A DNA stretch of 460 nt from Escherichia coli (GTDB lineage: Bacteria > Pseudomonadota > Gammaproteobacteria > Enterobacterales > Enterobacteriaceae). Made by a program: the position numbers and the translations under genes. Where the stretch lies: assembly GCF_003334335.1 (NCBI RefSeq), contig NZ_QOWQ01000186.1. The stretch is one strand, 5' to 3'. Below the pieces are notes generated by a model. The model was not told the origin of the DNA and searched no databases. It saw nothing but the letters and a program-made list of their open reading frames with translations. Within the stretch, counting starts at the first letter, position 1; each line of letters begins with the position of its first letter. Of this stretch, positions 1 to 460 are shown piece by piece.

Positions 1-120
1 GCGCTGGCGTGCTGGGGAATTGACAGATAAGCAGAATATTTTGCTGAAAAATGCGGTTTGCTCACACGGACGGATAACACGAAATCCTGCGAACTGACAA
101 AAACTAAGTGAATAAAAGTA

Positions 121-159
121 AAAACCCCGTTTGTTGGCTGCAAGCGGGGTTTTGTGTTT
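121..159 (+). terminator. Rho-independent (intrinsic) terminator hairpin, possibly bidirectional
   Basis: Seen directly: 121-129 AAAACCCCG is the exact reverse complement of 145-153 CGGGGTTTT, giving a 9-bp stem with a CCCCG/CGGGG core. The 15-nt loop (130-144) can pair further (T131-A143, T132-A142, G133-C141 plus G-U wobbles), leaving a ~5-nt apical loop. The stem is followed by the T-rich run TTTTGTGTTT (150-159). An A-rich tract (112-124) precedes the stem, so the reverse strand also sees a U-rich tail. Sits between the upstream region and the ORF1 ribosome-binding site. Confidence 0.75.
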
Positions 160-176
160 CTGACCTTGGATAAGGC

Positions 177-183
177 AAGGGAG
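177..183 (+). promoter_or_regulatory. Shine-Dalgarno sequence for ORF1 (AAGGGAG)
   Basis: Purine-rich AAGGGAG lies 3-6 nt upstream of ATG 187, complementary to the 16S rRNA 3' end. A second SD-like TAAGG is at 171-175. Confidence 0.5.
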
Positions 184-186
184 AAC

Positions 187-369
187 ATGGAAAAGTATAA
201 ACGAATTCTGTTGAGGTTGACTATGAAAAACGGCCTTGAACTGAAAGCGCCTGTAACTGATGACATCAGCAGAGCACTGGCTTTTGCCATTAAGTGGGTG
301 GCGGTCGGTGTTGCTGTGTCCCCGATGCTGTATGGGCTGGCAAAACTGGTCATTGCGTTGAAATCGTGA
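187..369 (+). CDS. Hypothetical small basic protein (60 aa) with C-terminal hydrophobic, putative transmembrane segment
   Basis: ATG 187 to TGA 367-369, in frame with the supplied 154-369 ORF. Product: MEKYKRILLRLTMKNGLELKAPVTDDISRALAFAIKWVAVGVAVSPMLYGLAKLVIALKS. The N-terminal ~29 residues are charged and basic; residues ~30-58 are predominantly hydrophobic and long enough for one membrane span. Ten K/R versus four D/E. The frame contains no TTA/CTA/TCA codons and uses CTG frequently. A strong SD lies upstream and a tightly linked downstream gene follows. Start is uncertain: the in-frame ATG 223 (SD-like GAGG at 214-216) would give a 48-aa product. No homolog recognised from memory. Confidence 0.6.
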   Translation: MEKYKRILLRLTMKNGLELKAPVTDDISRALAFAIKWVAVGVAVSPMLYGLAKLVIALKS

Positions 370-377
370 AGGGAGGA
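369..377 (+). promoter_or_regulatory. Shine-Dalgarno sequence for ORF2 (AAGGGAGGA)
   Basis: GGAGG core at 372-376, 7 nt upstream of ATG 384, which is near-optimal spacing. It begins on the last base of the ORF1 stop codon (TGA 367-369), indicating operon organisation and possible translational coupling. Confidence 0.65.
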
Positions 378-383
378 TTAAGC

Positions 384-460
384 ATGTCAGACAAACTCAT
401 AACGCTGGCGAAGATCCTCTGTGTAATTGTCGGCATTTCATTTTCACTAATGCTGGTTGC
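384..460 (+). CDS. Hypothetical membrane protein, N-terminal fragment (3' end beyond window)
   Basis: ATG 384 in frame 3, open to the window end; the supplied ORF track presumably omits it because no stop is reached. Translation: MSDKLITLAKILCVIVGISFSLMLV..., a short polar N-terminus (MSDK) followed by an uninterrupted hydrophobic stretch typical of a signal-anchor or first transmembrane helix. Strong SD with ideal spacing. In-frame GTG 366 and TTG 354 are possible alternative starts but lack an SD. Confidence 0.6.
   Translation, partial: MSDKLITLAKILCVIVGISFSLMLV

What the first reader, a model, noticed from the sequence alone, without database searches (positions are those of the whole stretch)
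384..460. ORF2 N-terminus looks like a type II signal anchor, as seen in phage i-spanins and some holins
Seen in sequence: MSDK followed by LITLAKILCVIVGISFSLMLV, a very short cytoplasmic N-terminus and then a hydrophobic helix. Established knowledge: Rz-type inner-membrane spanins and many holins start this way (lambda Rz begins MSRVTAIISALVICIIVCLSW...). This is a similarity of pattern, not demonstrated homology, and many unrelated bitopic membrane proteins share it.
Basis: inference. Interest (0 to 1): 0.4.

Follow-up and report, generated by a model that had tools for sequence, protein, structure and literature searches.

The report
Small membrane peptide upstream of spanins
The ORF is a real but only 43-codon gene for a single-helix membrane peptide of unknown function, sitting just before the true spanin genes (Rz/Rz1) in the lysis region of lambda-like E. 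coli phages; it is not itself a spanin or a holin.

Summary
Window 384-460 encodes MSDK followed by a strongly hydrophobic helix. The ORF stops 55 nt beyond the window, giving a 43-aa protein that forms one helix (residues 2-38), with no periplasmic domain and no charged C-terminus. The window is 100% identical to Escherichia phage PhiR12_1 and to many E. coli prophages. It spans the end of lysozyme R, a terminator-like hairpin, a 60-aa ORF1, and the start of ORF2. The real i-spanin Rz, with an embedded lipoprotein Rz1, starts 11 nt after ORF2, and an S21-type holin lies upstream. So ORF2 is neither the spanin nor the holin. It belongs to PHROG 4906 (unknown function). It is found in 276 phage records, including 933W, where it is unannotated, and in about 31% of complete E. 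coli genomes, always labelled "hypothetical". Its length, Shine-Dalgarno site and frame are conserved across unrelated upstream contexts, but purifying selection is weak. A Sakai homolog (XECs191 = ECs_1966) has low Ribo-seq signal. My best guess is a late-expressed accessory inner-membrane peptide of the lysis operon, translationally linked to Rz; a cargo (moron) role is nearly as likely. The result is ordinary to mildly interesting.

The parts
1..30 (+). 3' end of the endolysin gene R (177 aa; stop TAA at 28-30). Its N-terminus carries a weakly hydrophobic, Ala/Gly-rich segment at residues 5-27, which looks like a SAR or signal anchor.
   Evidence: Annotated as lysozyme R in PV340549 and in RefSeq. 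phrog_7 endolysin, E=1.1e-63. Hydropathy.
121..163 (+). Strong stem-loop (14 bp) followed by a U-rich tract, resembling an intrinsic terminator, just after R. Window 1-185 is about 95% conserved in Stx phages, after which the sequences diverge.
   Evidence: Terminator scan. RNA fold -23.1 kcal/mol, z=-3.54, 0 of 200 shuffles as stable. Conservation boundary at about 185.
187..369 (+). ORF1: a 60-aa protein (MEKYKR...ALKS) with a basic N-terminal part and a C-terminal TMD (tail-anchor-like). It belongs to PHROG 1115, of unknown function, and is optional cargo.
   Evidence: Annotated CDS. phrog_1115 E=1.4e-42. No Pfam hit. Found in only 14 phage records. Hydropathy.
370..377 (+). Shine-Dalgarno sequence AGGGAGGA for ORF2, 6 nt upstream of the ATG.
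   Evidence: Sequence. An SD is retained in at least five different upstream contexts.
384..460 (+). First 25.7 codons of ORF2. The full gene runs to the equivalent of window position 515 and encodes a 43-aa single-pass membrane peptide, PHROG 4906 (= Sakai ECs_1966 / XECs191 family).

Best explanation
ORF2 is a genuine, translated 43-aa gene encoding one transmembrane helix with almost nothing on either side of the membrane; the predicted topology is N-in/C-out. It lies in the late (lysis) operon of lambdoid and Stx-type E. coli phages, after the endolysin and any optional cargo, and directly in front of the two-component spanin genes Rz/Rz1. Its stop codon lies 7-11 nt before the Rz ATG, or overlaps a possible GTG start as GTGA, so ORF2 and Rz are probably translated as a coupled pair from the Q-antiterminated late transcript. 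It is not the i-spanin and not the holin. I put about 0.9 on this identity. The mechanism is inferred, at about 0.35-0.4: a dispensable accessory inner-membrane peptide made together with the lysis proteins. It would insert in the inner membrane and, through its nearly invariant small-residue face (G17, S19, with S21 in most alleles), pack against another TMD or against itself to fine-tune a late membrane event such as holin triggering, endolysin release or spanin deployment. Small single-TMD factors such as LambdaSo Lcc6 and Mu gp25 do this in other phages. What is shown: gene structure, conservation, position, helix and weak translation signal. What is inferred: topology, late expression, coupling and function.
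For: The sequence is identical to annotated CDSs in PhiR12 phages and RefSeq. It matches PHROG 4906 at E=2.1e-23. There are 129 homologs, all about 43 aa and all E. coli hypothetical proteins. All 14 DNA alleles are intact, and the annotated frame has the lowest pN/pS (0.64, against 0.81 and 1.13); most of the divergent pairs give 0.27-0.6. An SD is retained in at least five unrelated upstream contexts, and the gap to the Rz ATG is 11 nt in 79 loci and 7 nt in 5, out of 91. In 933W and Sakai its start overlaps the ant stop. The order S-R-(cargo)-ORF2-Rz-Rz1 holds in nearly all of 87 loci. The complete ant-ORF2-Rz junction is present in 244 phage records. No plus-strand sigma-70-like promoter was found between R and ORF2. 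AlphaFold gives a single helix at pLDDT 89.7. Ribo-seq of Sakai lists the homolog XECs191 as translated (LB translatome RPKM 12.6, RCV 0.43) and as an inner-membrane protein with one TMH (PMC5597208). Precedents for small one-TMD accessory lysis factors are Lcc6 (bioRxiv 10.1101/2024.01.23.576932) and the Mu releasin (PMC9239132).
Against: No experiment addresses its function. Lambda (my own knowledge) and K-12 Qin lyse or are built without it, so it is not a core lysis gene. A roughly 65%-identical homolog sits in a phiP27-like cassette with different holins, a soluble GH108 endolysin and no Rz after it, which argues against any fixed partner. The gene travels with ant and other mini-ORFs, as cargo does. 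Purifying selection is weak, and one allele (L090) shows an excess of nonsynonymous changes. The Ribo-seq signal is low and comes from uninduced cultures. Unlike Lcc6 and gp25 it has no cytoplasmic domain.
Confidence: 0.45

Rival explanations
1. ORF2 is cargo (a moron) unrelated to lysis. In this reading it is a mobile mini-gene for a membrane peptide that benefits the phage or lysogen in some other way, such as superinfection exclusion, receptor or injection blocking, or modulation of a host membrane protein. It would sit in the R-Rz gap only because that gap tolerates insertions.
For: The R-Rz gap holds interchangeable cargo: ant, ORF1, a 231-aa ANT protein, and 31-aa and 28-aa hydrophobic mini-ORFs, all in PHROGs of unknown function apart from the ANT/antirepressor genes. 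ORF2 occurs with ANT in a phiP27-like phage with no Rz next to it, followed by a small lipoprotein. Alleles are mosaic, with recombination inside the ORF. The gene is absent from K-12 Qin. There is low expression in uninduced Sakai cultures.
Against: No own promoter or terminator was detected; classic morons carry both. ORF2 is tightly juxtaposed to Rz in 84 of 91 loci. It has no PADLOC or defence-family hit. The uninduced signal may simply come from spontaneous induction.
Confidence: 0.3
2. ORF2 is mainly a translational-coupling upstream ORF. What matters is ribosomes terminating at the Rz start, which would keep Rz/Rz1 translated after cargo was inserted between R and Rz. The peptide itself would be incidental.
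For: The ORF2 stop is 7-11 nt from the Rz ATG, or overlaps a candidate GTG start as GTGA. Its last codons (GGG GTG A) lie where the Rz Shine-Dalgarno site should be, and the C-terminal GL(L/V)G is conserved.
Against: The hydrophobic helix, the 43-codon length and several invariant residues (K4, L5, S19, M23, V25, W33, L36) are conserved. ORF2 stays intact where other mini-ORFs separate it from Rz by 140-218 nt, and where no Rz follows at all. pN/pS is lowest in the coding frame.
Confidence: 0.12
3. ORF2 is a non-functional remnant or hitch-hiking ORF, for example a leftover TMD-coding fragment, kept open by chance and by recent spread.
For: dN/dS is only moderately below 1 and exceeds 1 for one allele. 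The family is narrow, essentially Escherichia only, with 29 representatives in 1.84 billion proteins. Many copies are near-identical.
Against: There are no frame-breaking indels among alleles down to about 65% identity. An SD is re-created in each new context. The gene is present in 1,659 of 5,426 E. coli genomes, with up to 7 copies per genome. No longer parent protein exists from which it could be a fragment. There is a Ribo-seq signal.
Confidence: 0.08
4. One reading: ORF2 is the i-spanin (Rz-type) or a holin of this phage.
For: It has a short polar N-terminus followed by a TMD, as Rz does, and it lies in a lysis cassette.
Against: It is 43 aa, with no periplasmic domain, no embedded lipoprotein gene, one TMD and an uncharged C-terminus. 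The true Rz/Rz1 and an S21-type holin are both present in the same cassette. It has no holin or spanin Pfam or PHROG hit.
Confidence: 0.03
5. ORF2 is a type I toxin-like membrane peptide controlled by an antisense RNA.
For: Its size and hydrophobicity resemble Hok-, Ldr- or TisB-class toxins (my own knowledge).
Against: Nothing suggests an antisense RNA over ORF2: the only minus-strand promoter-like site nearby (L001 5223-5194, inside ORF1) points away from ORF2. There is no Rfam family hit. The gene sits in an operon, tightly packed between other genes.
Confidence: 0.02

Closest known systems
PHROG 4906 / E. coli O157:H7 Sakai ECs_1966 (= novel gene XECs191 of Hücker et al. 2017, PMC5597208) / RefSeq WP_001280930.1
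   Same: It is the same protein family (E=2.1e-23 to the PHROG). The length is 43-48 aa with one TMH. The position is the same: after ant or other cargo and immediately before Rz.
   Different: Nothing differs, since this is the family it belongs to. The family has no assigned function, and the gene is not annotated in the reference 933W genome.
Lambda-type i-spanin Rz (Pfam PF03245 Phage_lysis; PHROG 13)
   Same: Both have a short N-terminal cytoplasmic head followed by one TMD, and both lie in the lysis cassette.
   Different: Rz has a periplasmic coiled-coil domain of about 130 aa and an embedded Rz1 lipoprotein gene. ORF2 ends 5-10 residues after its TMD and has no sequence similarity to Rz. 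The real Rz is the next gene.
Holins, especially the S21-type class II holin (pinholin), Pfam PF04971
   Same: Both are small inner-membrane proteins of the lysis cassette.
   Different: Holins have two or more TMDs, or one TMD plus a large periplasmic domain, and a highly charged C-terminus. ORF2 has one TMD and no charged residue in its last 15 positions. An S21-type holin is already present upstream.
Lcc6 of Shewanella phage LambdaSo (bioRxiv 10.1101/2024.01.23.576932)
   Same: It is a tiny (65 aa) single-TMD phage protein of previously unknown function, acting alongside a pinholin, SAR endolysin and Rz/Rz1 in a lambda-like phage.
   Different: Lcc6 has a 43-aa cytoplasmic tail, is encoded far from the lysis cassette near xis, and is essential for lysis. 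ORF2 has no tail, lies inside the cassette, and is clearly dispensable in related phages.
Mu gp25 releasin (DUF2730, PF10805; PMC9239132)
   Same: It is a single-TMD accessory protein encoded within a few genes of a SAR endolysin and the spanins.
   Different: gp25 is N-out/C-in with an anionic cytoplasmic domain and carries DUF2730. ORF2 has no DUF2730 hit and no soluble domain.
P2 LysA (my own knowledge, not tested here)
   Same: The gene sits between the endolysin and the spanin genes, and the protein is a non-essential membrane protein that affects lysis timing.
   Different: LysA is about 140 aa with several TMDs. No sequence relationship was examined.

Membership tests
i-spanin (Rz type) | N-terminal TMD with N-in/C-out topology | tested here: inconclusive
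   One TMD is predicted. The orientation rests only on the positive-inside rule, from K4 and K10.
i-spanin (Rz type) | Periplasmic alpha-helical (coiled-coil) domain long enough to reach the o-spanin | tested here: not met
   The ORF stops at codon 43, leaving at most about 10 residues after the TMD. No family member exceeds 105 aa.
i-spanin (Rz type) | Cognate o-spanin lipoprotein gene embedded in, overlapping or adjacent to it | tested here: not met
   ORF2 contains no lipobox ORF. Rz1 (MKLFALTLPLVVSAC...) is embedded in the next gene, Rz.
i-spanin (Rz type) | Sequence membership in an Rz family (PF03245 or the spanin PHROGs) | tested here: not met
   ORF2 hits only phrog_4906, of unknown function, and no Pfam family. 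The downstream gene hits phrog_13 at E=4.5e-75.
Holin | Two or three TMDs (classes I and II), or one TMD plus a large periplasmic domain (class III) | tested here: not met
   There is a single helix over residues 2-38 and no extra domain.
Holin | Hydrophilic, highly charged C-terminal tail | tested here: not met
   None of the last 15 residues is charged, against 9 of 15 in the cassette's S protein.
Holin | Homology to a holin family, and being the holin of its cassette | tested here: not met
   ORF2 has no holin Pfam or PHROG hit. The S21-type holin is present upstream (phrog_9876 and phrog_20; PF04971).
Holin | Timed lethal permeabilisation of the inner membrane | not testable with these tools
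   This requires expression and complementation experiments.
Releasin (DUF2730) | DUF2730 domain: N-out TMD plus an anionic cytoplasmic domain | tested here: not met
   The Pfam scan shows no PF10805 hit, and the protein has no soluble domain. The family definition is from PMC9239132.
PHROG 4906 (uncharacterised phage small membrane protein) | Full-length match to the family profile | tested here: met
   E=2.1e-23, residues 1-43 against profile positions 7-49 of 49. The divergent homolog P0123 also matches, at E=2e-19.
Type I toxin (Hok/Ldr/TisB-like) | Antisense or overlapping regulatory sRNA, own promoter, and toxicity | tested here: inconclusive
   No promoter-like site directed across ORF2 and no Rfam hit. 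Toxicity is not testable here.

The most novel reading that the evidence does not exclude
ORF2 (PHROG 4906) is an unrecognised additional component of the lysis system of Stx-type lambdoid phages. In this reading it is a bare-TMD peptide, co-translated with Rz, that tunes holin triggering, SAR-endolysin release or spanin activation. It would thereby affect the timing of lysis and of Shiga toxin release, as a cassette-resident, modulatory counterpart of Lcc6 or the releasin.
Probability: 0.22. Interest if true: 0.6.

Novelty: already known. Interest (0 to 1): 0.3.

Why it matters
If ORF2 is only an uncharacterised hitch-hiking micro-gene, the practical outcome is an annotation correction. The true Rz/Rz1 lie just downstream, and they are mis-started or unannotated in some records. 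The micro-gene is missing from the reference 933W annotation even though it is present in 276 phage records, most of them Stx phages, and about a third of E. coli genomes. If it does modulate lysis, it would add a component to one of the best-studied lysis paradigms. It would also bear on the timing of Stx release, which depends on phage lysis. Recent work on Mu gp25 and LambdaSo Lcc6 shows that such small one-TMD factors have been overlooked before.

Tried and rejected
- **Family libraries.** Pfam gave only DUF3930 at E=0.095, which is not significant. NCBIfam, PADLOC and PDB sequence searches gave nothing.
- **Remote homology.** An exhaustive profile search for remote or longer relatives found only 29 short proteins. 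This rejects the idea that ORF2 is a truncated or N-terminal piece of a larger spanin-like protein.
- **Structured RNA.** The only Rfam hit was a sub-threshold rimP-leader match on the minus strand at the hairpin, E=0.093.
- **Antisense ORF.** The 80-aa antisense ORF over ORF2 is broken by stops in several alleles.
- **K-12 equivalent.** Qin has rrrQ abutting rzpQ with no such gene.
- **Specific link to pinholin/SAR endolysin.** This is rejected as a strict rule, because a homolog occurs with two multi-TMD holins and a soluble GH108 endolysin.
- **Specific link to Rz.** This is weakened by the same locus, where no Rz follows.
- **Literature.** Searches for the PhiR12 phages and for a functional study of this ORF found nothing relevant. 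Several tool calls failed because of queues or input rules.
- **Fold search.** I did not run one, because a single helix would give meaningless matches.

Full report
**What is in the window.** The 460-nt window is 100% identical to Escherichia phage PhiR12_1 (PV340549.1, 23416-23875) and to prophages in many E. coli chromosomes. Against the annotated records it contains, in order:
- the last 30 nt of the endolysin gene R;
- a strong terminator-like hairpin at 121-153 (-23.1 kcal/mol, z=-3.5);
- ORF1 at 187-369, encoding 60 aa;
- an AGGGAGGA Shine-Dalgarno site at 370-377;
- the start of ORF2 at 384.

**The full ORF.** In the identical phage record, ORF2 ends 55 nt past the window. The product is 43 aa: MSDKLITLAKILCVIVGISFSLMLVALFLSMAWMMLSSSGLLG. 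Hydropathy is very high, with a KD19 peak of 2.89. AlphaFold2, run with a 23-sequence alignment, gives one uninterrupted helix over residues 2-38 at mean pLDDT 89.7. There is no periplasmic domain, no second TMD, and no charged residue in the last 15 positions.

**The real spanins and holin are separate genes.** Directly after ORF2 comes a 152-157-aa gene that matches Rz-like spanin phrog_13 at E=4.5e-75. It shares the HYRDNAITYKAQRD motif with lambda Rz; the lambda sequence is from my own knowledge. Embedded in its +1 frame is a 56-61-aa lipoprotein gene with lipobox LVVSAC, which matches phrog_3198 at E=2.5e-31. Upstream are a 71-aa S21-type class II holin (phrog_9876 and phrog_20; PF04971 in a related locus) and the endolysin. 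All three canonical lysis functions are therefore already filled, and ORF2 is an extra gene. The lysis-neighbour part of the reading is correct.

**Is ORF2 a real gene?** Several lines of evidence agree.
- It matches PHROG 4906 (unknown function) at E=2.1e-23.
- It has 129 homologs, almost all 43-48 aa, every one labelled hypothetical or uncharacterised and from E. coli.
- tblastn finds it full-length in 276 phage records, mostly Stx phages including 933W. There it lies unannotated between ant and Rz.
- megablast finds it in 1,659 of 5,426 complete E. coli genomes, with up to 7 copies each.
- All 14 distinct DNA alleles I collected keep an intact 43-44-codon frame with no indels, down to about 65% identity.
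- The annotated frame has the lowest pooled pN/pS (0.64, against 0.81 and 1.13 for the other frames). Most of the divergent pairs give 0.27-0.6, although one allele (L090) shows an excess of nonsynonymous changes.
- A Shine-Dalgarno site sits 5-8 nt before the ATG in at least five unrelated upstream contexts.
- In 933W and Sakai the start overlaps the stop of ant.
- Independently, a ribosome-profiling study of O157:H7 Sakai lists the 933W-type homolog as novel translated gene XECs191. In LB it has transcriptome RPKM 30.0, translatome RPKM 12.6, RCV 0.43 and coverage 0.55. It is predicted to be inner-membrane with one TMH and is classed as "real" (PMC5597208). In the current RefSeq it is ECs_1966, in prophage Sp10, between the antirepressor and the endopeptidase.

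Selection on the exact sequence is weak, which is what one expects when the main constraint is to remain a hydrophobic helix.

**Context and linkage.** In 87 loci the order is S-R-(cargo)-ORF2-Rz-Rz1 almost without exception. The ORF2 stop is 11 nt (79 loci) or 7 nt (5 loci) from the Rz ATG. In the window's phage a GTG overlapping the stop (GTGA) could start Rz as MNINRMLSAF.... The complete 933W ant-ORF2-Rz junction is present in 244 phage records.

The segment between R and ORF2 is variable. It holds ant in Stx phages, ORF1 here, and a 231-aa ANT protein plus a 31-aa hydrophobic ORF in PhiR5_1. In PhiR5_1 and phiSTEC1589, further mini-ORFs lie between ORF2 and Rz: the C-terminal 38 aa of ORF1, and a 28-aa ORF. 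K-12 Qin has none of this, with rrrQ abutting rzpQ.

The most divergent homolog (P0123) sits in a phiP27-like phage with Phage_holin_8 and Phage_holin_3_7 holins, a soluble GH108 endolysin, ANT, the 31-aa ORF and ORF2. A small lipoprotein (phrog_7528) and an HNH/terminase block follow, with no Rz. ORF2 is therefore usually, but not obligatorily, tied to Rz. It is not tied to the S21-type holin/SAR-type endolysin pair.

**Other readings checked.**
- No Pfam, NCBIfam, PADLOC or PDB relative exists.
- A profile search of 1.84 billion representative proteins found only 29 hits, all of 105 aa or less. ORF2 is therefore not a fragment of a larger protein.
- No Rfam family matches, and no promoter-like site is directed across ORF2.
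- The antisense ORF is not conserved.
- No plus-strand sigma-70-like promoter lies between R and ORF2. Expression therefore most likely comes from the Q-antiterminated late transcript reading through the hairpin. This is an inference from established lambdoid biology.

**Most likely mechanism.**
- Identity, at about 0.9: a translated 43-aa bitopic inner-membrane peptide of the late operon, translationally linked to Rz.
- Function, inferred at about 0.35-0.4: a dispensable accessory membrane factor made with the lysis proteins. It could act through helix-helix packing via its nearly invariant small-residue face (G17, S19, with S21 in most alleles).
- Precedents: LambdaSo Lcc6 is a 65-aa one-TMD protein essential for pinholin-level function. 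Mu gp25 releasin is a DUF2730 protein. Both have cytoplasmic domains that ORF2 lacks.
- Rivals: a lysis-unrelated cargo peptide (about 0.3), a coupling upstream ORF for Rz (about 0.12), a remnant (about 0.08), a spanin or holin (about 0.03), and a type I toxin (about 0.02).

**Novelty and score.** The sequence and its family are already in the databases as hypothetical proteins, and a homolog has been reported as translated, so nothing here is new as an object. What remains open is its function. A specialist would find it mildly interesting that a conserved micro-gene sits in front of Rz in most Stx phages and is missing from the 933W annotation. It is not surprising, and no mechanism has been demonstrated. 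Interest is 0.3.

Noticed in passing
window 187-369 (ORF1): ORF1 is a 60-aa protein with a basic N-terminal half and a C-terminal TMD (phrog_1115, unknown function, no Pfam hit). It occurs in only 14 phage records. Its C-terminal 38 aa (VTDDISRALAFAIKWVAVG...ALKS) occurs as a stand-alone mini-ORF placed after ORF2 in PhiR5_1 and phiSTEC1589. It shares an xIxRAxAFAIxxVA motif with a 28-aa ORF just before Rz, suggesting paralogous, shuffled mini-genes.
   Followed up: partly
window 121-163: A 14-bp GC-rich hairpin plus U-tract (-23.1 kcal/mol, z=-3.5) lies right after the endolysin gene. It is conserved at about 95% in Stx phages up to window position 185, where the sequences diverge. It looks like an intrinsic terminator marking the edge of a cargo-insertion hotspot inside the late operon.
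   Followed up: partly
L004 (933W, AF125520.1) 2501-2629 = record 27438-27566: The ORF2 homolog is not annotated in the reference 933W genome, nor in most deposited Stx-phage records (features listed as 'none'). It lies between ant and Rz, with its start overlapping the ant stop.
   Followed up: yes
L001 5512-5985 and 5738-5923 (PhiR12_1): In PV340549 the Rz CDS is annotated from 5578, which cuts off its N-terminal TMD; the likely start is the ATG at 5527 or the GTG at 5512. The embedded Rz1 lipoprotein gene is not annotated at all.
   Followed up: partly
L002 (E. coli EC2) ORF2 allele, beyond window position 460: This locus is identical to the window through position 460, but the C-terminal half of ORF2 is of the 933W type (…AIFFSTAWRVLTLSGLVG), as is its Rz N-terminus. 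This indicates a recombination breakpoint inside the 132-nt gene.
   Followed up: partly
L088 3125-3322 (phiP27-like contig, Logan ERR3901405): A small lipoprotein-like ORF (MPRTAVKWALVAILVPFLLVGC..., phrog_7528, unknown function) follows the ORF2 homolog where Rz would normally be. No spanin is recognisable in that cassette. It could be a receptor-blocking or otherwise envelope-acting lipoprotein.
   Followed up: no
L001 3668-4385 (between the holin and the endolysin): Extra genes (DUF1327/YdfR family on the plus strand and DUF1823 on the minus strand) are inserted between S and R. This is another cargo slot inside the lysis cassette. In strain EC2 the YdfR gene is a pseudogene.
   Followed up: no
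L090 allele of ORF2 (GCA_024353925.1): This allele differs from the window allele by 17 nonsynonymous but only 3 synonymous changes (dN/dS about 2), while staying hydrophobic. This could reflect diversifying or relaxed selection in one lineage.
   Followed up: no
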